A stretch of DNA of 64,000 nt from Candidatus Woesearchaeota archaeon (GCA_016192915.1 JACPTF010000007.1:38623-102622), one strand, 5' to 3'; numbered from the stretch's first letter, positions 1 to 64,000 are shown. Notes: generated by a model not told the origin, from the sequence alone. Numbers and translations are program-made.

Positions 1-778
1 GTTCCGCATAGGTTAAATCGGATTTATCAAGAAATACGAAATTATTCCACGCTTTGTAATCTATTCTTGATGAATAATCTTTTTTTCTCCAAAAATCACC
101 ATTTGTAGGTATATACCCCAAAATTTTGCTATTCTTACAATCAGCTTTAAGTAAACCTTGTTCAAATACGCATCCGGTCTTATTCATGTAGCCATCTCCT
201 AATTGCAGATTAACGATCTTAAGAGCAACTGGCCACTGAGTCGTATCGGACGCCATTTGGCAGTAATCGACATTCAGCTTTCTATCTTTTTGAAGATAAG
301 TTCTAAATGCTTGACCAATTAGCATGCGTAAACGTTGGAAATTTCCTCTTGCCTGATAAATTGAACCAGATATCTTAACATATTCCTCAGAATTAGATAA
401 CGAAATATTTTTTTCTGTATAACTCAGTAACCACCAAATACCATCAGTATCTAACTCAAAAACTTTTCCTTCCTCATTTGATATGTAATAACGAGCAAAT
501 GGATGGCCATAATACGTGTTATTATCTTTATAAATATGGTCTCCGACTTTACCTTGCTCATTTAGAAATTCACTCAAGTTTGAATAAAACTGCTCTAACA
601 TAAAGCTGTCTGGGATAAAATAGGAATCAGCGTCAAAACTTGAATAACATTTGAATCTATCTAACTCTGAATAACTTAGTTCGGTATTTGAATTATTGAA
701 TAAAGTTTCTGCATTTGCAGTTTTGGTAAATGCAAAGACGAAAAGAAAAATTAACACGAATTTGCATAATTTTTGCAT
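1..778 (-). CDS. secreted hypothetical protein (C-terminal part runs off window start)
   Basis: Own translation from ATG at 778-776: MQKLCKFVLIFLFVFAFTKTANAETLF... stays open down to position 1. Has a signal-peptide-like N-terminus. Absent from the ORF track because there is no stop in the window. Confidence 0.5.
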   Translation of the reverse strand, partial: MQKLCKFVLIFLFVFAFTKTANAETLFNNSNTELSYSELDRFKCYSSFDADSYFIPDSFMLEQFYSNLSEFLNEQGKVGDHIYKDNNTYYGHPFARYYISNEEGKVFELDTDGIWWLLSYTEKNISLSNSEEYVKISGSIYQARGNFQRLRMLIGQAFRTYLQKDRKLNVDYCQMASDTTQWPVALKIVNLQLGDGYMNKTGCVFEQGLLKADCKNSKILGYIPTNGDFWRKKDYSSRIDYKAWNNFVFLDKSDLTYAE

Positions 779-801
779 TTTGGCACCGATTTAAACTTCT
801 T

Positions 802-1344
802 TTAATTTTGTTTCAGTAATCTTAACTCTCTTTCCCTTCTTTCTAATAGGGCCTTAAAGTTAGTATTAAAATACTTATCAATTCGAGGTTTGATATAAAC
901 TAATGATACTAAAATAGCGATTAAGACTAAAATCAAAGTTATAGTAACGATTAACCACTGCGGAATTTTCCACCATTTTTCGTAAATAGAAGCGGCAAAT
1001 AAAAATAACCAAATTTCAATAATAAAGAATACTTCTCCAGTTAAGACAGTTATAATCCATTTCTTTTTTGTAAAACGGCCCTCTTTTAAAAATATGGTTT
1101 CTACATAATAAAAGATGTACTGAATAAGCGGAATTATTAAAATCAAAGTTACCAAACTGCCCACAAAAACATAAGGGTTATTTACTATTAACTTAGGAAA
1201 TCCTATTGAAACAAGTGCTAATGCAGTTGCAAAAACAAATATCATCAATCCAAAAATTGTTGTGTCTAACGTGCCAAGATTAACGGATTCTTCTATTTCG
1301 TCAAGTCGCTTAAGGATTAAAGCATCTCTTGGATTTTTAACCAT
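802..1344 (-). CDS. multi-pass membrane protein, unknown function
   Basis: 180 aa ORF with several long hydrophobic segments (LALVSIGFP, LVTLILIIPLIQYIFYYV, FFIIEIWLFLFAASI, IVTITLILVLIAILVSLVYI). Confidence 0.5.
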   Translation of the reverse strand: MVKNPRDALILKRLDEIEESVNLGTLDTTIFGLMIFVFATALALVSIGFPKLIVNNPYVFVGSLVTLILIIPLIQYIFYYVETIFLKEGRFTKKKWIITVLTGEVFFIIEIWLFLFAASIYEKWWKIPQWLIVTITLILVLIAILVSLVYIKPRIDKYFNTNFKALLERRERELRLLKQN

Positions 1345-1379
1345 GATTAAGTCGTTAAAGAAGACCTTTAAATTACTTT

Positions 1380-1859
1380 CTACAACCTGCTAATAGAAAC
1401 TTCATCACTCATAGCTTTTTCCTTAAAAAGTCTTTTGTGAAGATTTAACTCTTCAATTTTGTTAACTTGGACATTCTTCGCCATGACATTAACCGTAAGC
1501 CTTTTTGACTTTTTTGGAACTAATCCGAATCTCTCCATAAGCCTCAGGTAAAAATCGTCTTCTTTTCTTAGCAAGTCTGCAGCGTGAAGTTTTTCCCTCG
1601 GATTTTCTTTCCACTCACTAAATATGCTAAAAATTGCTCGAACTCTTGCAATTCTGGATAATTGTATGTCTGTAAAAACATCTTCAGGTGTTTTAGTAAA
1701 TACTTCCTTCTTCACCCTTGAACGTATTTCAACCAAATCCCTGTCTACTGTTCTGTGGCCCACTCTCAATCTTTTTGCAATCTCTTCAATGCGATAACCA
1801 GTAGTGGAAAGTAGCATTACAGAATTCTGCCTTTCAACCTTACTCTTGAAAGTGGTCAT
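1380..1859 (-). CDS. HTH DNA-binding protein
   Basis: N-terminal GYRIEEIAKRLRVGHRTVDRDLVEI resembles a sigma-70 region 4 / resolvase-type helix-turn-helix. Confidence 0.45.
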   Translation of the reverse strand: MTTFKSKVERQNSVMLLSTTGYRIEEIAKRLRVGHRTVDRDLVEIRSRVKKEVFTKTPEDVFTDIQLSRIARVRAIFSIFSEWKENPREKLHAADLLRKEDDFYLRLMERFGLVPKKSKRLTVNVMAKNVQVNKIEELNLHKRLFKEKAMSDEVSISRL

Positions 1860-1910
1860 TTTATGCCATTTATGCCACTTTTAAATATATAAAACTATCA
1901 TTTTGCGATA

Positions 1911-2138
1911 TTAAACCTTCAGTTTTTGCAGAATCTGGTTGCCCTGTGGCGTGATTTTAACCCTGTCTCCCTTAGAAATAGTTACGGCATTGAACAGCTG
2001 GAGGTCCTTGCACTGATTCCTAATGGTCTTCCAGTTTGTATTGACCACCCTTTCAAGCTCACCATAGGAATGCTCCTTTCCATCACTGAGCGCTTGGAGT
2101 ATGGCCTTTCTGATCTCACTGTAGACTCGCTTTGGCAT
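1911..2138 (-). CDS. small winged-helix DNA-binding protein
   Basis: 75 aa. IRKAILQALSDGKEHSYGELERVVNTNWKTIRNQCKDLQ is wHTH-like. Antisense ORF 1926..2189 rejected. Confidence 0.45.
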   Translation of the reverse strand: MPKRVYSEIRKAILQALSDGKEHSYGELERVVNTNWKTIRNQCKDLQLFNAVTISKGDRVKITPQGNQILQKLKV

Positions 2139-2158
2139 ACCACATTATTGTGGCAAAG

Positions 2159-2166
2159 TTTATATA
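2159..2166 (+). promoter_or_regulatory. TATA box (TTTATATA) for lipoprotein operon
   Basis: About 33 nt upstream of ATG 2192, implying a leaderless or very short leader transcript. Confidence 0.4.
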
Positions 2167-2191
2167 GCAGTATTCCACAATATTGTTGAAA

Positions 2192-2707
2192 ATGAAGTAC
2201 CTCGCTGCAATCATAGCTATGCTGGTTCTTCTATCTGGCTGCCAAACTGCTCCAATGGAAACCGCTAAAGAACCGAAAGAAATAATGCTTCAAATTAATG
2301 ACTTGCCAGAGGGTTGGACCATAGATTACGAACAGATAACTAAAGGATCTGATAGCTACAACAACCCAACAGTATCGTTAGAATACGGATGGCAAAAAGG
2401 ATACCGCGCCGTCTACAAAGATCCAACAGAATCGTACGATCTTATGCAATTTGTAGACTACTACCCTCTTGAAAATGTTGTCAAAACATTCCGCGGGTCC
2501 ATTGTACCCTACGATACGCAACAAGAGCTACCCGATCCGAAAATAGGCAAAATAAGTCGTGCATACAAAGGAATTCATAGCTTTCTCGGAACCAAGTACG
2601 AAATCGAATTCATAAAAAAGAACGTCCATGTTCTGTTAACAATGGACGGCGAAAATAATTACGAACTGTTAAAAAACCTTGCCAGAAAAGTAGAGAAAAA
2701 AATATGA
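2192..2707 (+). CDS. lipoprotein, unknown function (paralog 1)
   Basis: Start chosen at the ATG giving MKYLAAIIAMLVLLSGC (lipobox). Shares ELP..W, GWQ.GY, YP.EN and Y.IEF.K.N motifs with the next gene. Confidence 0.6.
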   Translation: MKYLAAIIAMLVLLSGCQTAPMETAKEPKEIMLQINDLPEGWTIDYEQITKGSDSYNNPTVSLEYGWQKGYRAVYKDPTESYDLMQFVDYYPLENVVKTFRGSIVPYDTQQELPDPKIGKISRAYKGIHSFLGTKYEIEFIKKNVHVLLTMDGENNYELLKNLARKVEKKI

Positions 2708-3354
2708 TCCCGCGTTCCGGCTACGATGCTATTGTTCTCTTAACTGCTGTTGTGTTAGCAATCTCTTTCTTAATCGGTGGTTGCACACAGCAAGCACCCG
2801 TAGCTGTGGCACCTAAGAATCAAAGCCTTCAGACAGCCCCTGTTGCTACTGCCCCAATCAGTGCATCAACCACAGATAAAGAGCCCGTGGAAATAGCCCT
2901 ACAACTAAACGAGTTGCCAAACGACTGGAGAGTAATAAACCGTACCAATATTACGAGAACACAAATGGGTAAAGTCTTCCTGACATTGGGATGGCAAAGC
3001 GGGCAAACTATTCAGTTCTTAGATCCTCAACAGACAACAACGATAGTACAAGCTATAAGTATCTACCCCTTCGAAAACATAAGTCAAATACTTATTAAGA
3101 ACAGGAGAGTAGAAGTATTGTTAGGATTGTTATATCCTTCTATGACATATGAAAACATAACCGACCCAGAAATAGGCAACGAAAGCATAGCATACAAAAT
3201 TATAGATAAAACAAAAAAAGATTCACCAATTATCGGCTACCAGATAGAATTCTCTAAAGAAAATGCCTATGTCGAGATAGCTATTTTTGGAAAATCATTA
3301 GATTATGAACTGTTAAAAGCAATAGCATTAAAAGCGGCAGCTAAAATCACATAA
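2704..3354 (+). CDS. lipoprotein, unknown function (paralog 2)
   Basis: ATGA start/stop overlap with the upstream gene. LIGGC lipobox. C-terminal domain is a paralog of 2192..2707. Confidence 0.6.
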   Translation: MIPRSGYDAIVLLTAVVLAISFLIGGCTQQAPVAVAPKNQSLQTAPVATAPISASTTDKEPVEIALQLNELPNDWRVINRTNITRTQMGKVFLTLGWQSGQTIQFLDPQQTTTIVQAISIYPFENISQILIKNRRVEVLLGLLYPSMTYENITDPEIGNESIAYKIIDKTKKDSPIIGYQIEFSKENAYVEIAIFGKSLDYELLKAIALKAAAKIT

Positions 3355-4172
3355 TGCTTGTGGCATTAAAAATGACACGATTTAATATGCAGAAAACCGG
3401 AATCGTCTTATTATGCCTAACTATTCTATTCATTCTTGCAGGCTGCAGTTCGCCTAATAACGCTACTGGAGAAGCTGTTAAACTTGATAATCAAACTGGC
3501 AAACTACCCGTAGTTAACTCCTCAGCTCAGCCAGCAACATGTAACCCCAATTGGCAATGTACGGCGTGGGAAAGTTGTAATTCAGGCGTACGTAGGAGAA
3601 GTTGCACTGACCTAAATGGTTGTGGAACGGATATGCCTGCTATTGTAGAACAATGCCAACAAGCTATTGCTCAGCAGCCCGATGTAAGTAAGACACCAGC
3701 TGCGGGTGAGCCTAAAACGGGTCCTGTGATAATAGAAAATTCTCCAACAGATTTAAAACAGCAAGCAAAGCAAGGAGAGGTTACACGTACAGTTGGCGGC
3801 ATAACTCTTGCTCTAAAAAGCATAAAGTATGAGGTGAGAGGTTCCGATTACGCAGTGCTGACGGGCATACAATTTGCTTTAGTTAATGAAGGCAGCGAAA
3901 CGATTAGTCCGAGAATAGCTGTTTATCTATGGGATGATAATGACAAAATAGAGAACAGTGCATCCGAAAAAACATACATAGAGGTTGACGGATACGCATT
4001 TAGAAAGGACGGCTTCATTATAAAAGATGCTACTGTAAGAATACCTTTTGATGATATAAACTTAACAAAACACATTAAATTATCTGCCATGGACGGCAGT
4101 TACTTTGACTCAAGAACCTTTATTAGCATACAGTACGACTTCTTGATAAAAAACCAAAGCAAAGCACAATAA
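3354..4172 (+). CDS. lipoprotein with Cys-rich module
   Basis: LCLTILFILAGC lipobox. CNPNWQCTAWESCNSGVRRRSCTDLNGCG cysteine motif. Start overlaps the upstream stop; the true start may be the internal MQKTG. Confidence 0.55.
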   Translation: MLVALKMTRFNMQKTGIVLLCLTILFILAGCSSPNNATGEAVKLDNQTGKLPVVNSSAQPATCNPNWQCTAWESCNSGVRRRSCTDLNGCGTDMPAIVEQCQQAIAQQPDVSKTPAAGEPKTGPVIIENSPTDLKQQAKQGEVTRTVGGITLALKSIKYEVRGSDYAVLTGIQFALVNEGSETISPRIAVYLWDDNDKIENSASEKTYIEVDGYAFRKDGFIIKDATVRIPFDDINLTKHIKLSAMDGSYFDSRTFISIQYDFLIKNQSKAQ

Positions 4173-4499
4173 CTTAAGCCTTTCCCCTACTGCCAGTTCT
4201 TTTGCCTTTTCGGAACTTAAACATTTGATTGACCTACGGTTTGCCAGTGTTAAGATTCTCGTTAAGCCTTGAGTATAGGCAATGCATTCTTGTTAAATTT
4301 AGTATTATCATTAAGTATTGTTGATGATAGTGATTTTGATGTGTATATGATATATCCATCATCAACACTTCACAAAAATCTTGATAGTTCTTATTCGTTA
4401 TTGGAAAGCAATGCTTAATACTCACTGTTAAAGTTGATAGTTACTCTATGTCCTATTATGGCTCGGAAGGACTGTTAATAGCTGCTGTGAGTTAATAGT

Positions 4500-4976
4500 T
4501 CAGCTCTTCCTTACCAGCTTGTTGTTGTCAACTACCTTGCAGTTAGACCGTACTTCCACATAGTCGTTCAGCAGTAGTCTGACTTCTGTGCTATCAACTC
4601 CAAGTGCGTCCATAATCTCATAAAAGATGACTGTTGGCTTTTCTGCAATCAGCTTATCTATCGCTTTGTATTGGTCTTGCACGATGAGCGAAGGGTCGTA
4701 TACCAGCACTGAAGGTCTCTTGCTGGCGCTTTCGCCCTTTACGAACCTGAAGCCAGGCTGAGAGCCAACTTTCTCCATTAAGTGAAGTGCCCAGCCTCTG
4801 GACGTGCCAAAGAATTTATCCACATCGCTTGATGTAAGGCGCCCCCGCTTTTGGGCTTCCTCAGCCAGCTTGCCAGCTTTATCACTAAGCTTTTGCCTGA
4901 CAGCCAACTTAGCAAGAGCCTCCAATCTTTCAAGTGTAACTTCAATTCTATCTAAACGTTCATTATCACTTCTCAT
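4500..4976 (-). CDS. hypothetical protein
   Basis: 158 aa ORF, last gene of an overlapping minus-strand operon (5412 down to 4500). Confidence 0.45.
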   Translation of the reverse strand: MRSDNERLDRIEVTLERLEALAKLAVRQKLSDKAGKLAEEAQKRGRLTSSDVDKFFGTSRGWALHLMEKVGSQPGFRFVKGESASKRPSVLVYDPSLIVQDQYKAIDKLIAEKPTVIFYEIMDALGVDSTEVRLLLNDYVEVRSNCKVVDNNKLVRKS

Positions 4977-5169
4977 TTTTAATCAACTCAAAGAATTCAC
5001 GCCTTAGATGTTCGCGCAAGAACGTTGAAAGACCCATTCCTTTGTTTGTAGCTATCGCTTTGAGCGTTTTAAGCTCCTCAGAAGAAAGTTTTATGCTGGC
5101 CGTGCTGCACAGGCCAGGTTTAGAATACCAAAGCTTTAATATTCCTGACTTCTTAGGTTCGCTTGTCAT
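4966..5169 (-). CDS. small ribbon-helix-helix-like protein
   Basis: IKLSSEELKTLKAIATNKGMGLSTFLREHL fits the CopG/RHH strand-helix-helix pattern. Overlaps the downstream gene by 11 nt. Confidence 0.4.
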   Translation of the reverse strand: MTSEPKKSGILKLWYSKPGLCSTASIKLSSEELKTLKAIATNKGMGLSTFLREHLRREFFELIKNEK

Positions 5170-5278
5170 TAACCATCATCTGTATCAGTTTGGGGCGTTT
5201 GCCGCGCCCTGAGCTTATTTCTTCTTCAAGCTGGTTAAGCCATTTACGCAGCTCTTGTAGGAATTCATCTATTGCCAT
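5153..5278 (-). CDS. possible 41-aa small ORF bridging two operon genes
   Basis: Own translation: MAIDEFLQELRKWLNQLEEEISSGRGKRPKLIQMMVNDKRT. Overlaps both neighbours. Below the ORF-track size cutoff. Confidence 0.3.
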   Translation of the reverse strand: MAIDEFLQELRKWLNQLEEEISSGRGKRPKLIQMMVNDKRT

Positions 5279-5412
5279 TTGTTTTCGCCACATTTCTTAA
5301 GTAAAAACTCAACAGCTGCACTTAAACTTTTGATTTTCTCTCTTGCAGCAACCAACTTAAGTTTGGTATGAACATCTTCTTTGAGACCCACTTGCTTATA
5401 TCTCGCTTCCAT
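5269..5412 (-). CDS. ribbon-helix-helix (Arc/CopG-like) regulator
   Basis: Internal ATG gives MEARYKQVGLKEDVHTKLKLVAAREKIKSLSAAVEFLLKK, a typical RHH. Divergent from 5477..6358. Confidence 0.5.
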   Translation of the reverse strand: MEARYKQVGLKEDVHTKLKLVAAREKIKSLSAAVEFLLKKCGENKWQ

Positions 5413-5476
5413 GGAATTAATGGAATACGATAAATTTATAAATAATATGTAACTACTAAACTTAGTAGTAAGATAA

Positions 5477-6358
5477 ATGACGACTAAAGCATTTTTAAGG
5501 ATAATCAAAAACGAACAAGTAGCAATTAAGCTATACGTTGAGCTGTTGAAAAACTGGCATAACAGCGTTAGCCTTTCACACTTCTGCTACAATGACAAAG
5601 GTAATGCTCGGCCTAACGTTGCGCATTATCTTTCCGAATGGCAAAGGGAGGGTTATCTGACCAGCACTCGTGTGGCCGAGCTTACAAAACGTAAAAGCAA
5701 GTTTGAGAAAAAAGAGGAATACAGATTGAATAAAATTAAATACCGTGCTAATACTAAAGCACTAATAGAGTATTGTGATGAAATTTTTTCTTGGGAACCA
5801 AAGAACAAAACCCTTCTTTTCCTCAATGCCCTATTTGATAATGATTTAGAAAGGTCTCACTTGCTAAGAGATATTAGCAAGCCACGCTTTAACATTTTTG
5901 AGCGATTACTTGCTAATATTAGAAACTTTTTGTTAGAAGAACTACAAAACTACTCCTCTTTCATTAAATATGTCAAAACTCTTGATAAAAATGGTGGGCG
6001 TTTATCGATAGAGAAACTATTGGTCAAATATCCAAAGATAATACCTGATATGGTTAGAGGGCCTTTTGCTGACCATAAAACTCTATTTTTTAAAACCGCT
6101 ATAGAAGTAACTGAAGAACGCCTTGAAATATATCTTCCATCTCATGATATCATTGACGAAAGTTTTTTTAAAGAGATGGAGAAGCTATTTCCAGAATATT
6201 TCGGCATTGTTAGAGGACTGGCCAAACAGATCAAGGAAAAGGCTGCGTCTGCCGATTTAGAAAAAGGCATCCGTTTCGCTCTTATCCAACAGATGAAGAA
6301 AAGAAACAAAAGTTTCAATGTTTTTAAAGATGCTCAACAGAGCCTCTTGATGCGATAA
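5477..6358 (+). CDS. hypothetical protein (possible N-terminal wHTH)
   Basis: 293 aa ORF in the island, divergent from the RHH operon. No motif I can name. Confidence 0.45.
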   Translation: MTTKAFLRIIKNEQVAIKLYVELLKNWHNSVSLSHFCYNDKGNARPNVAHYLSEWQREGYLTSTRVAELTKRKSKFEKKEEYRLNKIKYRANTKALIEYCDEIFSWEPKNKTLLFLNALFDNDLERSHLLRDISKPRFNIFERLLANIRNFLLEELQNYSSFIKYVKTLDKNGGRLSIEKLLVKYPKIIPDMVRGPFADHKTLFFKTAIEVTEERLEIYLPSHDIIDESFFKEMEKLFPEYFGIVRGLAKQIKEKAASADLEKGIRFALIQQMKKRNKSFNVFKDAQQSLLMR

Positions 6359-6391
6359 CTTTTTAAGCAGACTGGTGAAATTAAATCCAAA

Positions 6392-7093
6392 ATGGATTAT
6401 TCCTCGCTTATAGAAAAAATACGTAATAGTATAGCAATAGTTTATGTAGTTCAAGGACAGAATATGATAAGCAAGGGTAGTGGTTTTATCTTTTTTAAAA
6501 AAGGGATATTAGTAACATGCAATCACGTAATAACAAAACAGGATTCTAATATCTTAATCCAGTTTCCGGATGATCGTAAAATTCTTCAAACAAAGGTCAT
6601 GATACGCGATGAAGAACACGATTTAGCATTATTGAAATTTGATGACCAAGTGAGAGAACCACTTAAAATAGCGGACACCGAGATAATAAAAGAGGGCATT
6701 CCAGTAGTTTTTGCAGGTTACCCCTTAAGTTTAGAATCATTAACAACTCATCAAGGGATTCTTTCTGGTATAATTACAGATGCAACAGGAGTTACTACTT
6801 ACATGATAGATGGTACTGTTAACTCTGGGAATAGTGGTTGTCCACTTATGTCTGAAGATGGAAAAGTTATAGGAGTCGTTAATGCTAAAAGAATGGAACA
6901 TTCAGATTTATTGACTAAAATTGGAGAACAAAAAACTGGAGCAGTATCTTTGCAAGGAGTGGATTTAGTAGAACTCTTTCAAGCGATAATAAACAATGTG
7001 CAGTTAGGCATCGGGTATGCTATTCCTTGCACATATGTTCCAAGACCACATGGTGTGGAGCAAGAGGATATAGCGGAGGATAAAAATGAGTGA
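6392..7093 (+). CDS. trypsin-like (S1/DegP-type) serine protease, no PDZ domain
   Basis: Catalytic-triad context TCNHV (His), HDLALLK (Asp), GNSGCPL (Ser). Confidence 0.7.
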   Translation: MDYSSLIEKIRNSIAIVYVVQGQNMISKGSGFIFFKKGILVTCNHVITKQDSNILIQFPDDRKILQTKVMIRDEEHDLALLKFDDQVREPLKIADTEIIKEGIPVVFAGYPLSLESLTTHQGILSGIITDATGVTTYMIDGTVNSGNSGCPLMSEDGKVIGVVNAKRMEHSDLLTKIGEQKTGAVSLQGVDLVELFQAIINNVQLGIGYAIPCTYVPRPHGVEQEDIAEDKNE

Positions 7094-7388
7094 GTACATT
7101 TTTAGATCAAGCGGAACTTATTTAGGGTTTATAAGTAATGGATCTCTTTTTTCAAGAGATGGAGAATATCTTGGTTGGGTTGAAGGTAAGTTTGTATGGG
7201 ATTCTTCCGGGCAATTTCGTGGAGAAATCAAAGAAATGAATAACAATAAGTATATTTTGAAAAATATCTTTTTAATTCAACCTATTCCTAAAGTTCCAAA
7301 AGTATGGCCTGTATCACCGGCTCCTCCTGTTCCCCAAGCGAACATAATGCCCGTCTTCTTGCCAATAGGATTAAAAGACGCTTTTTAG
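7086..7388 (+). CDS. hypothetical protein with internal G.YLG/DGEYLGW repeats
   Basis: 100 aa. Overlaps the protease gene by 8 nt. Repeated GTYLGFISNGSLFSRDGEYLGWVEGKFVWDSSGQFRGEI pattern and a Pro-rich tail. Confidence 0.45.
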   Translation: MSEYIFRSSGTYLGFISNGSLFSRDGEYLGWVEGKFVWDSSGQFRGEIKEMNNNKYILKNIFLIQPIPKVPKVWPVSPAPPVPQANIMPVFLPIGLKDAF

Positions 7389-7513
7389 TCAATTCCTAAT
7401 AAACGCCACAACATTTATAAAAGCTTGTCGCTATAGCTGCTTCAGCCAGACCAATGGTGGTTTGACTTTTCTGAAGGTTCCTCGGACGGGGCACTTCTCT
7501 TTTCCTGGACAAT

Positions 7514-7540: not shown

Positions 7541-7570
7541 GTTGATAAGGGAGCGTAGAGCTCCCTTATT
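7541..7570 (+). repeat. tRNA leader hairpin GTTGATAAGGGA-loop-TCCCTTATT
   Basis: Stem ATAAGGGA/TCCCTTAT abuts tRNA position +1. The same motif precedes tRNA-Thr and tRNA-Ser(UGA). Confidence 0.7.
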
Positions 7571-7655
7571 GCCGGGAGTGGGCGATCCGGTGCGCCTACC
7601 TGTCTCGAAAACAGGTTTCCGAAAGGATATCGGGGTTCAAATCCCTGTCCCGGCG
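7571..7655 (+). tRNA. tRNA-Ser (anticodon CGA), class II, no intron
   Basis: Hand fold: acceptor GCCGGGA/TCCCGGC, G73. D stem GGGC/GCCT. Anticodon stem CCTGT/ACAGG with loop CTCGAAA. 15-nt variable arm. T arm CGGGG-TTCAAAT-CCCTG. No CCA encoded. Confidence 0.8.
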
Positions 7656-7740
7656 CTCAACCTTCTTTGGCAAGCACAAGCCGACAGCAGTCGGCTGTGC
7701 AGTCCTGCCAAAGCAGGACTTGCAAAGAAGCTTGACCAAG

Positions 7741-7791
7741 CCCAAATCGAGAGCTCTCGATTGGGCCCAGTCGTCTTGCAGACGACTTGGG
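7741..7791 (+). repeat. twin-hairpin element copy A (51 nt)
   Basis: CCCAAATCGagagctctCGATTGGG CCCAGTCGtcttgcagaCGACTTGGG, in the trailer of tRNA-Ser(CGA). Confidence 0.85.
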
Positions 7792-7837: not shown

Positions 7838-7850
7838 CCTGTCCCGGCGC
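7838..7850 (+). repeat. second copy of the tRNA-Ser(CGA) 3' end (CCTGTCCCGGCGC)
   Basis: 13/13 identity with 7644-7656. The preceding base is A rather than C, which would break the G53-C61 pair, so it is probably non-functional. Confidence 0.7.
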
Positions 7851-7908
7851 TTCCTCCTTTCAATTCATAAGCTTTTTATACTAATTTCAAACTCAAAAGC
7901 GTTCAACA

Positions 7909-9953: not shown

Positions 9954-10092
9954 CCCAAGTCGGCTTGCGCCGCAAATCGGCAGCAGCCGATTGCGCATTC
10001 CGCCTTGCGGAATTGCGACTGGGCCCAGTCGAGTTAGCTTCGTTTTAGAGACGAAGAATGTCGCCTCGCCGGCGACATATGCTCGACTTGGG
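9954..10092 (+). repeat. expanded/nested twin-hairpin element (139 nt)
   Basis: CCCAAGTCG...CGACTGGG encloses two hairpins. It is immediately followed by CCCAGTCGAG...CTCGACTTGGG enclosing two more. Sits in the 3' trailer of tRNA-Val. Confidence 0.7.
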
Positions 10093-10099
10093 GGTTGAG

Positions 10100-10263
10100 T
10101 GGGCTCGCCCAGACATCCTCACTGGCGTTCGGGGCACAAATCGCTGATGCGATTGTGCCCAGTCGGTTTTTCACCGACTTGGGCATTGCCGCCGGGCGCC
10201 AATATTCGAACTGGGGACATCTTCCACGTCAAGGAAGCATCATAACCACTAGATCACGAGCCC
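10100..10263 (-). tRNA. tRNA-Val (anticodon GAC) with 91-nt T-loop intron
   Basis: Minus strand: GGGCTCG...CTTCC-TTGACGT-GGAAG, ATGTC, CCCAG-TTCGAA | intron 10204..10114 | T-CTGGG-CGAGCCC-A. Confidence 0.75.
10135..10183 (+). repeat. twin-hairpin element copy B (49 nt), core of the tRNA-Val intron
   Basis: CACAAATCGctgatgCGATTGTG CCCAGTCGgtttttcacCGACTTGGG. Confidence 0.8.
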
Positions 10264-11494: not shown

Positions 11495-11541
11495 CCCAAA
11501 TCGCAGCAGCCGATTGCGCCCAGTCGCAGTAGCGACTTGGG
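11495..11541 (+). repeat. twin-hairpin element copy D (47 nt, first hairpin degenerate), free-standing
   Basis: CCCAAATCGcagcagcCGATTGCG CCCAGTCGcagtagCGACTTGGG. No tRNA nearby. Confidence 0.75.
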
Positions 11542-12327: not shown

Positions 12328-12456
12328 AGCCTCTGCGGGGACTTGCACCCCGGACCTCGTCCTGATTGGTCAACCGTTTTTGGTTGAGCTTTTGTTCGCC
12401 CACAGGCGAATAAAAGATCATACCAAGGACGCGCGCTACTGCTGCGCCACAGAGGC
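12328..12456 (-). tRNA. tRNA-Thr (anticodon GGU) with canonical 57-nt intron
   Basis: GCCTCTG-TG-GCGC-AGCAGTA-GCGC-G-CGTCC-TTGGTA | intron 12420..12364 | A-GGACG-AGGTC-CGGGG-TGCAAGT-CCCCG-CAGAGGC-T. Abuts the PPIase stop codon. Confidence 0.75.
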
Positions 12457-12492
12457 ATAAGGGCACTCACTTCGTTCGCGCCCTTATCAACC
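12457..12492 (-). repeat. tRNA leader hairpin GGTTGATAAGGGC-loop-GCCCTTAT
   Basis: Immediately 5' of tRNA-Thr on the minus strand. Confidence 0.7.
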
Positions 12493-13050: not shown

Positions 13051-13157
13051 GAATAAGATTTGAATGCGTTTCTGATCAACGCGTTTTCTTGTCAACCTTC
13101 TTTCAAAGCCGTTTTTGGTCAAGCTTTTTGCGAACCACTGTGAGCAAAAAGGTTGAA

Positions 13158-13289
13158 TGCGGGGGAAGGGATTTGAACCCTTGAAGGGACTAACCCACAG
13201 GATGTCCTCCGGCAGATTTTCTGCCTGGCTTAAGTCTCGCAGACGATTTTTCGTCTCCTGCGCATTTAGCCGGGCTTTGCTACCCCCGC
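13158..13289 (-). tRNA. tRNA-Leu (probable anticodon UAA) with two introns flanking the anticodon
   Basis: GCGGGGG-TA-GCA-(13-nt loop)-TGC-G-CAGGA | 21 nt 13255..13235 | CTTAAG | 25 nt 13228..13204 | A-TCCTG, long variable arm, AAGGG-TTCAAAT-CCCTT-CCCCCGC-A. Confidence 0.6.
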
Positions 13290-13290
13290 G

Positions 13291-13370
13291 TGTGACCCCT
13301 TTGCGAAAGCGGTCAATCGGAACCCAAATCGCTGCTGCGATTGGGCCCAGTCGACGCAAGTCGACTTGGG
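13291..13370 (+). repeat. composite element: GTGACCC..GGTCAATC hairpin + twin-hairpin copy E
   Basis: tgtgacccctttgcgaaagcggtcaatcgg, then CCCAAATCGctgctgCGATTGGG CCCAGTCGacgcaagtCGACTTGGG. Lies in the 5' flank of tRNA-Leu, antisense to it. Confidence 0.8.
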
Positions 13371-13451
13371 AACCGACGACTGCCTGCAAAAAAGGTCAAT
13401 CAGAAAATGATTGATGCAATTTATAAAGGTTGTTGAGGCCGGTGAGCGCCC

Positions 13452-18508: not shown

Positions 18509-18697
18509 GATTTGCCCTCTTTTTTTACTCTGCTGACGAGTGTGATGGCTGCAATTGCCGTCAAATGGCGTCTGCAAGCGTCTGCAGCTACAGCTAACAG
18601 CCATAATCCCAATCCGTATTTAAAAAAGTATCGTTAGACTTCGAAAAGAAGGCACTTTACATAAAGTTATTAAAATGCGGCAGCTGCCCCTAGCATA

Positions 18698-28443: not shown

Positions 28444-28472
28444 AAAAACGATAAGTTCGGAGGGAATTGAAA

Positions 28473-34497: not shown

Positions 34498-34559
34498 TGC
34501 ATTCTTCAAATGTGGCAACAAACTATTTAAACCACCATTTTGTCCCATGACACCGGACC

Positions 34560-34805
34560 GGGCCGGTAGTTAAACCTGGTAAAGGGTTACTGTTAGCGCT
34601 CTCCAGAGTAACGCGCCGCTGGCCGCGGTGTGACCCTTTTTAGAAAAGGGTCAATCAAACCCAAATCGTGCCGTGCACGATTGGGCCCAGTCGGCTAAAG
34701 CCGACTTGGGAACCGTAAAGGCTTCGGGTTCAAACAGCCCTTTTGTTCGCCACTGCTCACAAAAGCGCTGGCGGAAAAACGGGCCTGAAAGTCCCGACCG
34801 GTCCA
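34560..34805 (+). tRNA. tRNA-Ala (anticodon GGC) with three non-canonical introns
   Basis: GGGCCGG/CCGGTCC acceptor with G3:U70 and A73. D arm GTTA-AACCTGGTA | ~27 nt | TAAC. Anticodon arm CGCCG-CTGGCCG-CGGTG. Variable-region intron ~34631-34718. T arm TCGGG-TTCAAA | 34735-34791 | T-CCCGA. Confidence 0.6.
34629..34710 (+). repeat. composite element (GTGACCC..GGTCAATC hairpin + twin-hairpin copy F) forming the tRNA-Ala variable-region intron
   Basis: tgtgaccctttttagaaaagggtcaatcaaa, then CCCAAATCGtgccgtgcaCGATTGGG CCCAGTCGgctaaagcCGACTTGGG. Confidence 0.8.
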
Positions 34806-34861
34806 CTCAATCTTTTTAGTTGCTCTGGCAACCAAAAAGCTTGACCAAAAACGGTGGATAA

Positions 34862-54999: not shown

Positions 55000-55189
55000 T
55001 TCCCAATCGCCCGCACACCCAACAATACTTATTAAAACTTTTAAGAAATGAGTATAAATAGTTTTCGATAGCATCAGCTCCTGCTTTATGGCGGCACAAT
55101 TCCGCAACAGGCGGAATGTGCAATCCTGCAAGGCAGGATTTGCAGAATCAGCAAATTTTTAATAAAAGCACAGCACCAGCAGCTGGAAA

Positions 55190-61337: not shown

Positions 61338-64000
61338 TCAATAATCCAGGAATATCTCCACATTCTGCCCTTTTATTCTGGCGACTGCTTCGCTGCCAAA
61401 CGTTCCCTGCTGAGGCCTTGTTTCGGCTACGTCAAGCTTGAAAGCGCCAACCTTTGACTTTACTTCAGCAGCGCTTTCCACCAGAGCGCTTTTCAGCAGC
61501 TGCAGCTGCTCAGGAACAACCACGCTCACTGCAATAACCTGCTCCCTAGTCAGGCCAGCAGTCTTCCTTGCCTGCTGGATGTGCCTTACCAGTTCCCTAA
61601 CGTAGCCCTCTGCCTCCATCTCCTCTGTGGTGTCGGTATCAACATAAAGGCTGCCATACGCCGACTCAGCAACTGCAAAGTTTGCCGGAACTTCCATCTC
61701 TGTTATGAGGTGGTCTTTCGTTATTGAAATCATCTGGCCGTCAATGTCAAGCTTAAAGCTACCGTCCTTCTCAATGTGGCTCAGTATTCCAGAAGTGCCG
61801 TGCATGGCAAGGTTGGCTATTATTTTCGGAGTCAGGCTGCCGAAAACAGGGCCAAGCTTGTTATAATCAGCCTTAACCCTCATCCTGGCTTCCTTGAACT
61901 CATCAGAGAGGGTGAGCTCCTTCACATTGCTCTGCCTCTTGATTATTTCAGCAAGGGCCCTCACAGACTGCTTAGTATTTTCGTCTTTGGTGGCCACTGA
62001 AACCCTCTTAACAGGCCACCTAAGGCCGCGCTGAATCTTGTCCCTTGCAGAAAGAACTGATTCAACTATGCTTCTTGCAACAGCCATCTGGCTTTCAAGA
62101 AGCGAGTCAACAGCCTCCGGCTTGGGCCAGTCGGCAAGGTGAACGCTCACGGGCTCCCAAGTCGCTTTGCTGCGACTGGGCCCAATCGTGTCGGACACGA
62201 TTCGGGTCTCCCTAACGATAAGCTGGTAGATTTCCTCAGTCACGTAAGGAGCAAAAGGAGCCAGCAGCTTAACCAACCGTGAAATCACATAGCGCAGGGT
62301 GTACTGCAGGGCATCGTCAGGCTCAGCTGCCCTCCCCCTAATCAGGCGAATATACCACCTTGAAAAGTCATCCGTGACAAGCCCCTTAAGCTCATGCACG
62401 CAGACATGGTACTCATGCTGGGACAATGCACGGTCAACAGCGGCAGCAACCGAATTGGTTCGGGAGATAATCCACTTGTCTTCTATTTTAAGCGAAGCGT
62501 CCTTCACTACTGCCTGCTTGCTGATGACTTCAGAAGCGAAATAGCAGCTGTTCCACAGGGTAGTAAGGAATGGCAGAACATTCTCGCTGACAATGTTGTA
62601 GCTAAAGCGCTTTGCAGCTTCAGGCGAGGTGCTGCAGAACTGAAGGCGGACAGCATCAACGCCGACTTTGTCAAAAATCTCCCACGGATTCAGGACATTG
62701 CCCTTGCTCTTGCTCATCTTGTCTCCGTGCTCATCCACAACATGGCCTGCGCAGACAACGCTCTTGTAAGCAAAATCATCAAAAAGTAGTGTCCCTAGGA
62801 CGTGCAAGGTGTAGAACCAGCCACGAGTCTGGTCAATGGCCTCTGCTATGAAATCGTATGGGAAATGTTTTGCAAATAATTCGCTGCTGCCTTTGCCAAA
62901 CGGGTAGTGGAACTGCGCAAAGGCTGCAGCGCCTGAATCATACCAGCAGTCGATAACGTACGGCACTCTGGACATTGTTCCATTGCAGCTGCCGCATTTC
63001 AGCTTTACTTCGTCAATAAAAGGCTTGTGAAGGTCAATTTCAACGTTTTTAGGCAAATCAGCGGCTTTTTCTTTCAGCTCCTTAACGCTGCCAATTGCCA
63101 CTTCGCCCCTACAGCCGCCGTTGTCGAGGGTTGATAAGGGCGCAGCAGTGCCCTTATTGTCGCACCTCCAAATCGGCAGGGGAGTCCCCCAGAACTTGTT
63201 CCTGCTCAGGGCCCAGTCCTTGACGTTTGCGAGCCAGTCGCCAAACCGGCCGTGCTTAATGTGCTCGGGGAACCAGGCAATTTTTTCATTAAGCTCAAGC
63301 AAGCGCTCCTTATACCTGCTGACAGCAATAAACCATGACTTAAGCGCGTAATAAATAAGCGGGCTCGAGCATCGCCAGCAAAAAGGATAGGTGTGTGTGT
63401 AGTCCTTTTTGCTGAACAAAGCACCGTCCTTTTCAAGGCGCTCAATAATCATGGGATCAGCATCCTTGACAAAAATGCCGGCATAGTCCTCAACGTCCTT
63501 GGTGAATTTCCCGTCTTCGCCAACAGGCTGGATAAAAGGCAGGCCATGCTTCTTGCAGTTCTCGTAATCCTCCTCGCCAAATGCCGGAGCTTGATGAACA
63601 ATACCGGTGCCTTCCTCTGTTGTAACAAAATCGGCCAAAGTGACAAACCACGCTGGCCTGTCAAGCTTGCCAACAAAGCAGTCAAACAAGGGCACATACT
63701 CCTTTCCCAGAAGCTCGCTGCCAGCCATCTTTTGCACAATGACCGGGTTGGTGAAATATTTTGCTGCCAAATCGTTGGCAAGGATAAACTGCTTGCCAGG
63801 ATATGCGCTGTCCTCAACAATAGCATAAGTTATGCCAGGGTGAACAGCAAGCGCAACATTGCCTGGAATAGTCCAGGGAGTGGTTGTCCACGCCAGAAAA
63901 AACCTGCCCGGGTTTTCCTTAAGCTGGAACGCAGTCGTTATGGCAGGCTCAGCTATCTCATCATAGCCCAAAGCAACCTCGTGGCTGCTTAGCGGAGTCT
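61338..64000 (-). CDS. ileS: isoleucyl-tRNA synthetase (N-terminus beyond window end)
   Basis: KMSKSKGNV, CP1 editing region, conserved SVHLADWP. The ORF stays open to the window edge. Confidence 0.95.
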   Translation of the reverse strand, partial: TPLSSHEVALGYDEIAEPAITTAFQLKENPGRFFLAWTTTPWTIPGNVALAVHPGITYAIVEDSAYPGKQFILANDLAAKYFTNPVIVQKMAGSELLGKEYVPLFDCFVGKLDRPAWFVTLADFVTTEEGTGIVHQAPAFGEEDYENCKKHGLPFIQPVGEDGKFTKDVEDYAGIFVKDADPMIIERLEKDGALFSKKDYTHTYPFCWRCSSPLIYYALKSWFIAVSRYKERLLELNEKIAWFPEHIKHGRFGDWLANVKDWALSRNKFWGTPLPIWRCDNKGTAAPLSTLDNGGCRGEVAIGSVKELKEKAADLPKNVEIDLHKPFIDEVKLKCGSCNGTMSRVPYVIDCWYDSGAAAFAQFHYPFGKGSSELFAKHFPYDFIAEAIDQTRGWFYTLHVLGTLLFDDFAYKSVVCAGHVVDEHGDKMSKSKGNVLNPWEIFDKVGVDAVRLQFCSTSPEAAKRFSYNIVSENVLPFLTTLWNSCYFASEVISKQAVVKDASLKIEDKWIISRTNSVAAAVDRALSQHEYHVCVHELKGLVTDDFSRWYIRLIRGRAAEPDDALQYTLRYVISRLVKLLAPFAPYVTEEIYQLIVRETRIVSDTIGPSRSKATWEPVSVHLADWPKPEAVDSLLESQMAVARSIVESVLSARDKIQRGLRWPVKRVSVATKDENTKQSVRALAEIIKRQSNVKELTLSDEFKEARMRVKADYNKLGPVFGSLTPKIIANLAMHGTSGILSHIEKDGSFKLDIDGQMISITKDHLITEMEVPANFAVAESAYGSLYVDTDTTEEMEAEGYVRELVRHIQQARKTAGLTREQVIAVSVVVPEQLQLLKSALVESAAEVKSKVGAFKLDVAETRPQQGTFGSEAVARIKGQNVEIFLDY
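62156..62206 (-). repeat. twin-hairpin element copy G (51 nt) inside the ileS reading frame
   Basis: Sense strand: CCCGAATCGtgtccgacaCGATTGGG CCCAGTCGcagcaaagCGACTTGGG. Translated in frame across RIVSDTIGPSRSKATW. Confidence 0.85.

What the first reader, a model, noticed from the sequence alone, without database searches (positions are those of the whole stretch)
7741..7791. Family of ~51-nt twin-hairpin elements with invariant stems and variable loops
Copies are at 7741-7791, 10135-10183, 11495-11541, 13323-13370, 34660-34710 and 62156-62206 (minus). An expanded version lies at 9954-10092 and a diverged nested one at 28386-28431. All share CCCAAATCG-loop-CGATTGGG fused to CCCAGTCG-loop-CGACTTGGG. 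Each hairpin has one bulged base. The second hairpin is an inverted variant of the first, so both strands fold alike. The loops and inner stems differ between copies but stay self-complementary. The element occurs in introns, tRNA leaders and trailers, free intergenic DNA and a CDS. That distribution points to a mobile or recombination-spread structured element. I do not recognise it as a described family.
Basis: seen in the sequence. Interest (0 to 1): 0.75.

Follow-up and report, generated by a model that had tools for sequence, protein, structure and literature searches.

The report
Tiny twin-hairpin mobile DNA in archaea
A 47-52-base unit made of two abutting DNA hairpins has been pasted, cleanly and without duplicating its target, into many places in a tiny (DPANN/Woesearchaeota-like) archaeal genome, including transfer-RNA introns and essential protein genes. 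It resembles bacterial REP doublets, and the literature and databases I could search describe nothing like it for archaea.

Summary
**Observation.** It is real. All eight quoted loci hold the twin hairpin, and I found three more copies. The central 16-mer occurs at 7 loci, against 0.01 matches expected by chance. Independent assemblies reproduce the copies.

**Host.** The window is not an organelle. It is a gene-dense DPANN (Woesearchaeota-like) archaeal contig.

**Anatomy.**
- The unit runs exactly from CCC to GGG.
- Hairpin 1 has a bulged A in its 5' arm; hairpin 2 has a bulged T in its 3' arm.
- The basal stems are nearly invariant.
- The tips vary but stay paired, and some carry nested copies.

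**Evidence of insertion.**
- Close IleRS orthologues lack exactly the 51 nt (17 aa).
- PurC relatives lack exactly 48 nt.
- Empty sites rebuild perfectly, so there is no target duplication.
- A syntenic relative has no copy in 22 kb.
- Copies inside genes are always in frame.

**Unexpected.**
- Four PurC orthologues carry the unit at the same codon, yet each one's nearest relatives lack it.
- Third-codon identity among the four is 100% inside the unit and 51% outside.

**Databases.** There is no Rfam match and no viral match. No transposase was found in the sequence held.

**Best reading.** This is a REPIN-like, non-autonomous mobile element, probably recognised as folded single-stranded DNA. 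The enzyme is unknown. I rate it a new variant of a known kind.

The parts
7741..7791 (+). Canonical twin hairpin, 51 nt, in the 3' trailer of tRNA-Ser (7571-7656).
   Evidence: (66.1 bits); identical in independent assemblies
7675..7722 (.). Diverged twin hairpin (CACA-A-GCCGAC..GTCGGC-TGTG + CA-GTCCTGC..GCAGGAC-T-TG). It has the same architecture as the canonical copies but different stems.
   Evidence: 22.9/20.4 bits; z -6.5
9954..10092 (+). Expanded composite of 139 nt. The outer twin-hairpin stems are intact, and each tip carries two further hairpins. It lies just 3' of tRNA-Val on the minus strand.
   Evidence: z -7.2
9971..10017 (+). Complete diverged twin hairpin nested in the first hairpin of the composite (CGCA-A-ATCGG.. 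+ CA-TTCCGC..GCGGAA-T-TG).
   Evidence: 31.7 bits; the same nested composite recurs in L127, L133 and L163
10135..10183 (+). Twin hairpin, 49 nt, inside the T-loop intron of tRNA-Val.
   Evidence: (58.6 bits)
10113..10203 (-). 91-nt non-canonical T-loop intron of tRNA-Val(GAC) (gene about 10099-10263, minus strand); it hosts the element.
   Evidence: ARAGORN calls tRNA-Val only after this segment is removed; a homologous intron plus element sits in a different tRNA in L141
11495..11541 (+). Twin hairpin, 47 nt, in the spacer between divergent genes.
   Evidence: 52.1 bits; identical in three independent assemblies
13323..13370 (+). Twin hairpin, 48 nt, in the 5' leader of an intron-bearing tRNA on the minus strand (about 13160-13291). 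It is flanked by two E2 hairpin repeats.
   Evidence: 63.3 bits
28386..28431 (.). Diverged twin hairpin inserted in the 3' arm of an E2 hairpin (28370-28385 plus 28432-28448), upstream of the thermosome gene.
   Evidence: (30.1 bits)
34660..34710 (+). Canonical twin hairpin, 51 nt, directly after an intact E2 hairpin (34631-34659). It lies inside a probable multi-intron tRNA gene (34555-34808).
   Evidence: 69.5 bits; tRNA identity unresolved
55095..55142 (.). Newly found diverged twin hairpin (CACA-A-TTCCGC.. + CA-ATCCTGC..-T-TG), upstream of the deoxyhypusine synthase gene.
   Evidence: (23.5 bits); the orthologous spacer in L146 lacks it
62156..62206 (-). Twin hairpin, 51 nt, inserted in frame in the isoleucyl-tRNA synthetase gene; it encodes TRIVSDTIGPSRSKATW.
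   Evidence: three orthologues (67-75% identical) lack exactly these 17 aa, and the empty site rebuilds as GAG A^AG CCC

Best explanation
**What it is.** A family of 47-52-bp non-autonomous mobile DNA elements in a DPANN (Woesearchaeota-like) archaeon, built like a REP doublet (REPIN).

**Shown.**
- The mobile unit is exactly two abutting imperfect palindromes, from the first C of CCC to the last G of GGG.
- It has been inserted precisely and without target-site duplication.
- Most insertions split A or T tracts, usually with purines on both sides of the H1->H2 strand.
- It sits where it is tolerated: tRNA introns, leaders and trailers, the arms or tips of other hairpin repeats (including its own kind), short spacers, and in frame in loops of housekeeping proteins, where it is translated.

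**Inferred cis-acting part.** The two 8-9-bp basal stems, each with one extrahelical base:
- A in the 5' arm of hairpin 1;
- T in the 3' arm of hairpin 2.

These stems are nearly invariant. The tips only need to pair and can carry cargo such as a nested copy.

**Inferred mechanism.**
- The element is handled as folded single-stranded DNA.
- In that form the two hairpins stack into a 'nicked dumbbell', and the nick coincides exactly with the insertion junctions.
- A trans-acting, structure-specific enzyme cuts and rejoins at the hairpin feet (GGG^CCC). Candidates are an HUH-Y1/RAYT-like transposase or an attC-type single-strand recombinase.
- The bulges mark which strand is opened.
- The enzyme has not been identified.
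For: **Precise insertion, no duplication.**
- IleRS has +17 aa = 51 nt relative to P0001-P0003; the empty site rebuilds the conserved E-K-P.
- PurC has +16 aa = 48 nt splitting one Lys codon (AA^G), absent from the 31 other relatives aligned.
- Filled and empty E2 hairpins keep matching A and T run lengths.

**Lineage-specific presence.**
- A syntenic relative (L146) has 0 copies in 22 kb, and the orthologous spacer is empty.

**Copies in genes are translated, not spliced.**
- Every copy inside a long ORF has a length that is a multiple of 3. Outside ORFs, lengths of 47, 49, 50 and 52 also occur.
- Hosts include IleRS, CarB, PurC and an MBL-fold protein. All copies lie forward on the coding strand and use the same central frame, I-G-P-S-R.

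**Conserved base, free tips.**
- Basal pairs are 27-29/29 identical. The inner pairs covary with all four pair types.
- There are 24 and 26 distinct tips among 29 copies.
- Sequence-diverged subfamilies keep the same bulge architecture.

**The pair is the unit.**
- No solo hairpins were found.
- The permuted order, with bulges on the inner arms, has 0 hits in 1.27 Mb against 133 normal junction hits.

**Nested and composite copies recur at different loci**.

**Active, boundary-precise turnover.**
- Four PurC orthologues carry the unit at the identical site, but each one's nearest relatives lack it.

**Parallels in bacterial REP families** (PMC3733652):
- dimers with partners only 1-2 bp apart;
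- dimers sitting inside target palindromes;
- in-frame intragenic dimers.

**REPIN persistence.**
- An abstract returned by the search reports REPIN-RAYT systems persisting in single bacterial lineages for millions of years.
Against: - **No enzyme found.** None of about 57 window ORFs scanned against Pfam, PHROGs or NCBIfam is a transposase or recombinase. A crude HUH-Y1 motif screen of about 250 kb of element-bearing DNA found nothing. RAYTs are usually single-copy, so this is a weak negative.
- **No conserved tag.** There is no GTAG/CGTC-type tetranucleotide, and the last four flanking bases are not a fixed target. The strict target rule of IS200/IS605 is therefore not met.
- **Conservation looks like function.** Third-codon positions are 100% conserved inside the PurC copies against 51% outside, and no decayed copies are seen. 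This fits selection on each resident copy, or concerted evolution, better than neutral selfish DNA.
- **Spacing between the bulges varies.** It is 8, 6 or 4 bp in different subfamilies, which sits uneasily with one rigid protein footprint.
- **The single-stranded intermediate is inferred from geometry only.**
Confidence: 0.5

Rival explanations
1. It is a host-functional structured element. The twin hairpin would be a binding or processing site used by the cell, either as DNA (for example topoisomerase or nucleoid protein sites, like bacterial BIMEs) or as RNA (stability, termination or processing signals in tRNA precursor transcripts). It would be maintained by selection, with mobility only a historical means of dispersal.
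For: - Nucleotide-level conservation of the PurC copies: 96% against 76% overall, and 100% against 51% at third codon positions.
- Every copy found is structurally intact, and no decayed copies appear among the model hits.
- About 6 of the 10 loci in the window lie in tRNA leaders, introns or trailers.
- Both strands give the same architecture, so the function could be independent of orientation.
Against: - Copies lie in either orientation relative to transcription.
- Copies sit inside coding sequence, where they are translated.
- A syntenic relative manages with none in 22 kb.
- Presence at the PurC site is patchy among close relatives.
- Positions relative to genes are not consistent.
- In a coding context, a requirement for pairing plus the protein constraint can freeze third positions without any host function.
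Confidence: 0.2
2. It spreads through RNA. A transcribed twin hairpin would be reverse-spliced or reverse-transcribed into new sites. This was proposed for the duplication-free double-hairpin elements of Allomyces mitochondria. It may be linked to the spread of archaeal tRNA introns.
For: - There is no target duplication.
- Many copies lie in transcribed regions, including a T-loop intron family shared by different tRNAs.
- An RNA route was proposed for the Allomyces elements, as summarised in PMC2800124.
Against: - Copies lie antisense to the host transcript in tRNA-Val and in the 13160-13291 tRNA leader.
- No reverse transcriptase was seen in the window.
- The hairpins have single-base bulges, not the two 3-nt bulges of a bulge-helix-bulge splice motif.
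- CDS copies obey the multiple-of-3 rule, so they are not spliced out.
Confidence: 0.1
3. There is no dedicated enzyme. The copies would arise and be homogenised by general recombination or replication processes acting on palindromes: template switching, short-patch gene conversion between copies, and hairpin-loop inversion.
For: - Tips reassort. The same hairpin-1 tip occurs with different hairpin-2 tips.
- Tips that are reverse complements of one another occur (TGCAAAGCA/TGCTTTGCA, CAGCAG/CTGCTG).
- A homologous intron in two tRNAs has identical element bases but unrelated tips.
- Concerted evolution could explain the conserved PurC copies.
Against: - Every copy ends exactly at the hairpin feet, and insertions into unrelated coding sequence show no microhomology (IleRS GAGA^AGCC, PurC CGCAA^GATT). 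Template switching does not predict this.
- Template-switch 'correction' of quasi-palindromes should erase the bulges, yet they are invariant.
- The permuted order never occurs.
Confidence: 0.12
4. It is a chance motif or an assembly artefact.
For: None found.
Against: - 12 matches against 0.01 expected.
- The same sequences appear in independent assemblies of six sequencing runs.
- Copies occur in other MAGs and metagenomes.
- The unit sits in frame within conserved genes of four genomes.
Confidence: 0.01

Closest known systems
Bacterial REP dimers / REPINs (BIMEs) mobilised by RAYT (TnpA-REP, HUH-Y1) enzymes
   Same: - 20-26-nt imperfect palindromes with mismatches or bulges.
- Units occur as inverted doublets, sometimes only 1-2 bp apart.
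- The two partners differ slightly (heterodimers).
- Stems or loops vary within a family.
- Dimers are found inside 'target' palindromes.
- Some dimers lie in frame within genes and encode about 20-30 aa.

These six points are from PMC3733652.

- Long-term persistence in a lineage (an abstract returned by the search).
   Different: - The host is a DPANN archaeon. In the part of Table 1 of PMC6006769 that I read, only the IS200/IS605-type subclass lists Archaea.
- There is no GTAG or CGTC tag at a hairpin foot.
- There is no spacer between the two units.
- The bulge identity and position are strictly fixed (A outer-5', T outer-3').
- The unit is always a pair.
- No RAYT gene has been found.
Mitochondrial double-hairpin elements (DHEs) of Allomyces and related repetitive hairpin-forming elements
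   Same: - Two adjacent hairpins form the unit.
- Closely related species differ in how often the elements are inserted.
- There is no flanking duplication (PMC2800124 summarising Paquin et al. 2000).
- From my own knowledge of Paquin et al. 2000, which I did not read here: those elements lie in intergenic regions, introns and in frame in coding regions.
   Different: - The host is an organelle of a fungus, not an archaeal chromosome.
- I did not test for sequence similarity.
- An RNA intermediate was proposed there, whereas antisense copies here argue against one.
Rickettsia palindromic elements (RPEs)
   Same: - Palindromic selfish DNA inserted in frame into housekeeping genes of a reduced genome.
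- The insertions add a conserved peptide (PMC10969869).
   Different: - RPEs are about 100-150 bp, occur in bacteria, and some carry a CGTC tag.
- This unit is 47-52 bp and consists of two separate hairpins.
Integron attC sites
   Same: - Recognised as a folded single strand.
- Conserved basal boxes.
- Extrahelical bases that set strand choice.
- A variable terminal structure.
- Insertion without target duplication.

These points rest on established knowledge of integron recombination, not on a test made here.
   Different: - attC is a single hairpin with R''/R' GTTRRRY cores.
- attC sites sit in cassette arrays next to an intI gene.
- Here there are no such cores, no arrays and no integrase nearby.
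MITEs and IS200/IS605-derived PATEs of archaea
   Same: - Small, non-autonomous and multicopy.
- PATEs have hairpin ends and make no target duplication.
   Different: - MITEs make target duplications; none is made here.
- IS200/IS605 elements insert 3' of a fixed 4-5-nt target and have subterminal hairpins with extra terminal sequence. Here the flanks are only purine-biased and the hairpins are the whole element.

Membership tests
REP / REPIN (RAYT-associated) | Short imperfect palindromic unit (about 20-40 nt) in many dispersed copies | tested here: met
   Units are 22-26 nt. About 10 twin units lie in 64 kb, and more occur in 30+ other contigs.
REP / REPIN (RAYT-associated) | Two units in inverted orientation forming the replicating doublet | tested here: met
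   Hairpin 2 is the reverse complement of hairpin 1 apart from one A-T/G-C pair. No solo units were found.
REP / REPIN (RAYT-associated) | Conserved GT[AG]G (or CGTC) tetranucleotide at one foot of the hairpin | tested here: not met
   The feet are CCC/GGG, and the flanks are variable and purine-rich.
REP / REPIN (RAYT-associated) | A cognate single-copy RAYT gene flanked by the repeats (REPtron) | tested here: inconclusive
   None was found in the 64-kb window or in about 250 kb of fragments. Whole genomes were not available.
MITE | Terminal inverted repeats | tested here: met
   The outer arms CCCAAATCG / CGACTTGGG are inverted repeats with one mismatch.
MITE | Target-site duplication | tested here: not met
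   The IleRS and PurC empty sites rebuild exactly. The A/T runs of E2 hairpins are not lengthened.
IS200/IS605-derived element (PATE) | Insertion 3' of a fixed tetra- or pentanucleotide, with no duplication | tested here: not met
   There is no duplication, but the last 4 flanking nt vary (CAAG, GGGG, GAAA, GAGA, AAAA, CGCT, CTTT ...).
Integron attC | R''/R' cores (RYYYAAC / GTTRRRY) and a position in a cassette array beside intI | tested here: not met
   The unit has no such cores. Copies are dispersed, and no integrase was found.
Archaeal bulge-helix-bulge intron | Two 3-nt bulges separated by a 4-bp helix; excised from the RNA | tested here: not met
   The bulges are single bases. CDS copies are always a multiple of 3 in length and stay open in frame.
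Any Rfam family | Match to a curated covariance model | tested here: not met
   Only tRNA matches were returned at the gathering threshold, and nothing at the element at E<=5.
Mitochondrial double-hairpin elements | Two-hairpin unit with no flanking duplication | tested here: met
   The family description comes from PMC2800124; in-frame copies in genes were shown here.
Mitochondrial double-hairpin elements | Sequence relatedness and an organellar host | not tested
   No DHE sequences were at hand. The host here is an archaeal chromosome.

The most novel reading that the evidence does not exclude
The twin hairpins are the cis-sites of a still-unknown archaeal recombination system that works on folded single-stranded DNA.

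- The element would move by 'dumbbell' peel-and-paste, with the two extrahelical bases choosing the strand that is cut.
- The system would be active and precise enough to add or remove the same 48-nt unit at the same purC codon in separate lineages.
- It would colonise other hairpin repeats and travel with, or help create, non-canonical tRNA introns in DPANN archaea.
Probability: 0.25. Interest if true: 0.85.

Novelty: new variant of a known kind. Interest (0 to 1): 0.62.

Why it matters
- **Streamlined genomes.** DPANN archaea have some of the smallest cellular genomes. A repeat family that occupies their scarce non-coding DNA and even essential genes (IleRS, CarB, PurC) shows that streamlined archaeal genomes can hold persistent mobile DNA.
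- **A gap in the REPIN-RAYT picture.** In the literature I could search, REPIN-RAYT-type systems are described for bacteria. An archaeal counterpart would point to an unrecognised enzyme.
- **Clean experimental substrate.** The boundaries are exact, the bulge rule is fixed, and the tips tolerate cargo. This makes the element a good substrate for finding that enzyme, and potentially a compact DNA-insertion tool.
- **tRNA introns.** The link with multi-intron tRNA genes bears on the open question of how non-canonical archaeal tRNA introns spread.
- **Annotation.** The element and its companion hairpin families hide tRNA genes from standard finders and add 13-33-residue inserts to proteins.

Tried and rejected
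1. **Genome-collection scan with hairpin 2 alone.** The pattern was too loose. Nearly all 119 hits were chance matches in high-GC bacteria.
2. **Viral contigs.** The strict pattern gave 0 hits. The junction pattern gave 16 hits, all palindromic chance matches.
3. **Do the variable tips pair with, or copy, the target flanks (guide-like targeting)?** The longest shared substring averaged 4.78, against 4.78 in permuted pairings. Rejected.
4. **Solo hairpins or long, gene-carrying versions.** None were found. Apparent solos were partners of diverged or expanded hairpins.
5. **Probing the protein database with the element-encoded peptide.** The query was too short. A concatenated probe found no candidates. 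The last protein search was wasted.
6. **IleRS representatives.** None of the 149 newly returned sequences contains an element peptide.
7. **Bulge-helix-bulge or spliced-intron reading.** Rejected on bulge size and on the multiple-of-3 rule.
Rejected: genes are dense and prokaryotic, with archaeal relatives.
9. **Brute-force intron removal for the 34555-34808 tRNA.** Many mutually inconsistent tRNA calls resulted, so its identity is unresolved.
10. **Transposase or recombinase search.** Pfam, PHROGs and NCBIfam scans of about 57 window ORFs, plus a crude HUH-Y1 motif screen, found nothing.
11. **Population polymorphism in the window's own population.** The Logan contigs are identical to the window, so no empty alleles were seen.

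Full report
**1.

Reading the quoted coordinates shows the described sequences. Exact-word searches pair every 5' arm with its 3' arm locally.

- The central 16-mer CGATTGGGCCCAGTCG, with up to 2 mismatches, occurs 12 times (both strands) at 7 loci. Shuffles give 0.01.
- As single-stranded DNA, every copy folds on either strand into two abutting hairpins, z = -4.9 to -7.2.
- The first hairpin has one bulged base in its 5' arm and the second has one in its 3' arm.
- Rfam gives only tRNA hits at the gathering threshold, and nothing at the element at E<=5.

**2. The host is an archaeon, not an organelle**

The window is packed with prokaryotic ORFs. They include aminoacyl-tRNA synthetases, a thermosome and glycosyltransferases.

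- Real matches to the element in the genome collection come from Candidatus Woesearchaeota MAGs, plus one bin labelled Methanosarcinales.
- The closest IleRS and PurC homologues are labelled Woesearchaeota or Nanoarchaeota.
- The same population appears in independent Logan assemblies of several runs. The sequence across the copies at 7675-7791 and 11495-11541 is identical there, which excludes an assembly artefact.

**3. Anatomy**

I collected 29 distinct canonical copies from the window, four MAG loci and 26 metagenome contigs.

| Feature | Result |
|---|---|
| Basal stems | 27-29 of 29 identical at every pair |
| Bulged A and T | always present |
| Distinct tips | 24 (hairpin 1) and 26 (hairpin 2) among 29 copies |
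| Extra Watson-Crick pairs in tips | 1.9, against 0.36 +/- 0.08 in shuffles |
| First inner pair | Watson-Crick in 56/58, all four pair types used |
| Covariation score | 0.161 against 0.041; 0/500 shuffles as high |
| Loop left after pairing | mostly 4-5 nt |

A loop of 4-5 nt is what a real hairpin needs. It argues against a mere duplex palindrome.

A covariance model, run without filters, found further copies at 7675-7722, 55095-55142 and 28386-28431. It also found a complete unit nested at 9971-10017 inside the expanded copy.

- These copies have different stem sequences but the same plan. The first hairpin reads C(N)CA, bulged A, stem. The second reads stem, bulged T, TG.
- No solo hairpins exist; the pair is the unit.
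- The order is fixed. Bulges on the inner arms (the permuted junction) have 0 hits in 1.27 Mb, against 133 normal junction hits.

**4. It is an insertion, with exact ends and no target duplication**

*IleRS.* The copy at 62156-62206 lies in the IleRS gene.

- Three orthologues (67-75% identical) lack exactly 17 residues, TRIVSDTIGPSRSKATW, which equal the 51 nt.
- Removing CCC...GGG restores GAG A^AG CCC = E-K-P, as in the orthologues.

*PurC (metagenome locus L120).*

- Four orthologues carry a 48-nt copy splitting one Lys codon (AA^G).
- The 31 other relatives aligned have the intact codon.

*Other evidence.*

- Other in-frame hosts are CarB, an MBL-fold protein and two uncharacterised proteins.
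- Every copy inside a long ORF has a length that is a multiple of 3. Outside ORFs, lengths of 47, 49, 50 and 52 also occur.
- All CDS copies lie forward on the coding strand and share the central frame I-G-P-S-R. They are therefore translated, not spliced.
- L146, a contig syntenic with window 51-64 kb, has no copy in 22 kb. The spacer orthologous to the 55095 copy is empty there.

**5. Where it lands**

Flanks on the H1->H2 strand are purine- and A-rich on both sides, and a minority of copies sit in T runs.

Twelve of 29 copies lie in or beside a second repeat, which I call E2: tGACC(C)TTTTT-loop-AAAAA(G)GGTCAATCAAAAA.

- Copies sit at recurring positions such as AAAAA^GGTC.
- The A and T runs are not lengthened.
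- Units also lie inside the tips of other units (window 9954-10092; L094). One such composite recurs in the window, L127, L133 and L163, so the basal stems can carry cargo.

In the window, about 6 of 10 loci are tRNA-associated.

- ARAGORN calls tRNA-Val(GAC) on the minus strand only after a 91-nt T-loop segment (10113-10203) containing the 10135 copy is removed.
- A homologous intron with a unit at the same spot sits in a different tRNA in L141.
- The 13323 copy is in a tRNA leader.
- The 7675 and 7741 copies are in the tRNA-Ser trailer.
- The 34660 copy is inside a probable multi-intron tRNA whose identity I could not fix.
- Orientation relative to transcription is mixed.

**6. Unexpected dynamics at purC**

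Among the four filled purC orthologues:

| Measure | Flanking 363 nt | 48-nt unit |
|---|---|---|
| Overall identity | 76% | 96% |
| Third-codon identity | 51% (near saturation) | 100% (96/96 pairwise) |

- Only two loop bases of hairpin 2 vary (AG, CA, AA, GG). L120 also carries a single stem change (CGAC to CAAC).
- The four are not each other's closest relatives. Each has nearest neighbours (80-89% identity) that lack the unit, in 99-100% of bootstrap resamples.
- So there were either several precise losses, or several gains of the same variant at the same nucleotide. In either case the resident sequence is held constant by selection for pairing, by concerted evolution, or by recency.
- All three are hard to reconcile with passive junk, and they point to an active, boundary-precise process.
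- A test of whether the tips match the target flanks was negative.

**7. How it most likely works**

*Shown:*

- exact CCC...GGG boundaries;
- no target duplication;
- conserved bulged bases;
- free, cargo-tolerant tips;
- nesting in hairpins;
- lineage-specific and patchy presence.

*Inferred:*

- Folded as a single strand, the two hairpins abut without a linker. The 5' and 3' ends of the unit therefore meet like a nick in a dumbbell.
- Joining them would recreate GGG|CCC, the same sequence as the internal junction.
- Both bulges lie on the strand that carries the ends.
- A structure-specific enzyme that cuts the bulged strand at GGG^CCC and joins it to a nicked target would explain four things: the boundaries, the lack of duplication, the fixed hairpin order and the strand-specific A-tract preference.

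The nearest precedents are HUH-Y1 enzymes acting on REP or IS200/IS605 hairpins, and integron integrase acting on folded attC with extrahelical bases (established knowledge). Bacterial REP dimers share many traits (PMC3733652):

- partners only 1-2 bp apart;
- heterodimers;
- residence inside target palindromes;
- in-frame intragenic dimers.

No enzyme was found in the window or in about 250 kb of fragments. There is no GTAG/CGTC tag and no fixed target.

My confidence that this is a once- or currently-mobile insertion element is about 0.85. My confidence in the single-strand HUH-like or attC-like mechanism is about 0.3.

**8. Rivals**

- **Host-functional DNA or RNA site.** The conservation and the tRNA association support it. 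CDS copies, mixed orientation and element-free relatives weaken it.
- **RNA-mediated spread, as proposed for Allomyces elements (PMC2800124).** Antisense copies and the absence of a reverse transcriptase weaken it.
- **Enzyme-free recombination or template switching.** It explains tip reassortment and loop flips, but not the exact boundaries or the persistent bulges.
- **Artefact or chance.** Refuted.

**9. Novelty**

No Rfam family, no viral hit and no paper in the searchable library describes such elements in DPANN archaea. The kind of element is known: small palindromic non-autonomous repeats such as REPIN, RPE and mitochondrial double-hairpin elements. I therefore rate this a new variant of a known kind. 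It is notable for four things:

- the archaeal host;
- the strict twin-hairpin and bulge rule;
- scar-free insertion into essential genes and tRNA introns;
- the purC pattern.

Noticed in passing
window 13293-13322, 13375-13405, 28370-28385 + 28432-28448, 34631-34659; also L047, L058, L121, L124, L129, L130, L134, L135, L144: A second dispersed hairpin repeat, which I call E2: tGACC(C)TTTTT-loop-AAAAA(G)GGTC with a one-sided tail AATCAAAAA. It often lies directly 5' of tRNA genes or inside tRNA introns. It is the commonest landing place of the twin hairpin, which always sits in or next to its A/T runs.
   Followed up: partly
window 7541-7569 (-), 12455-12492, 37887-37918, 37935-37966, about 37983-38072, 63128-63159 (-): A third hairpin family, which I call E4: CAATAAGGG-variable paired tip-CCCTTATCAACCC. 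Two copies end 1 nt before a tRNA 5' end (tRNA-Ser at 7571; a minus-strand tRNA starting near 37890). One copy lies in frame in the IleRS gene, flanked by a GACAA direct repeat. The 39 nt (13 aa) are absent from orthologue P0001, so unlike the twin hairpin this family may make a 5-bp target duplication.
   Followed up: partly
window 37885-38030: A 48-nt unit (GGCAATAAGGGCAGTGCCTGCCCTTATCAACCCTCGCACTACGACGAA) is repeated in tandem 2-3 times and is followed by a degenerate longer copy. It lies in the leader of a minus-strand tRNA.
   Followed up: no
window 10099-10263 (-), 13160-13291 (-), 34555-34808 (+), about 37745-37890 (-): At least four intron-bearing tRNA genes are missed by ARAGORN and Rfam. 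tRNA-Val(GAC) has a 91-nt T-loop intron. The others show acceptor and T-arm halves separated by inserts made largely of hairpin repeats. A homologous T-loop intron occurs in a different tRNA in L141.
   Followed up: partly
window 7644-7657 and 7838-7851: The last 14 nt of tRNA-Ser (CCTGTCCCGGCGCT) are repeated 194 nt downstream. The repeats bracket a stretch made almost entirely of two twin hairpins. This looks like the att-type duplication left by an integrating element, or a remnant of an alternative 3' half.
   Followed up: no
window 1-7500: A low-GC block (33-41%, against about 48% elsewhere) holds ORFs that mostly have no Pfam or PHROG match. It ends at tRNA-Ser and may be an integrated foreign element.
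   Followed up: partly
window 12385-12412, 13118-13150, 34745-34772; L057 about 1978-2010: Another recurring hairpin, CTTTTGTTCGC..GCGAACAAAAG-like (TTTTTG(C/T)GA..loop..(C/T)CAAAAAGG). It is next to GGTCAAGC/GCTTGACC motifs near tRNA genes. In L057 a twin hairpin sits between GGTCAAGC and this hairpin, whereas the window copy at 13108-13150 is uninterrupted.
   Followed up: no
window 17678-18604 (-), 21926-22588 (+), 45654-47708 (-): Three separate genes have Pol-beta-type nucleotidyltransferase domains (MntA-like, DUF6036). A PIN-domain gene at 43748-44164 is also present. Together they suggest toxin-antitoxin or defence modules.
   Followed up: no
L163 6853-6951: A 99-nt composite (a twin hairpin whose second tip carries a nested twin hairpin) lies in frame in a 270-aa protein. 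The orthologue in L164 (224 aa) lacks that stretch.
   Followed up: partly
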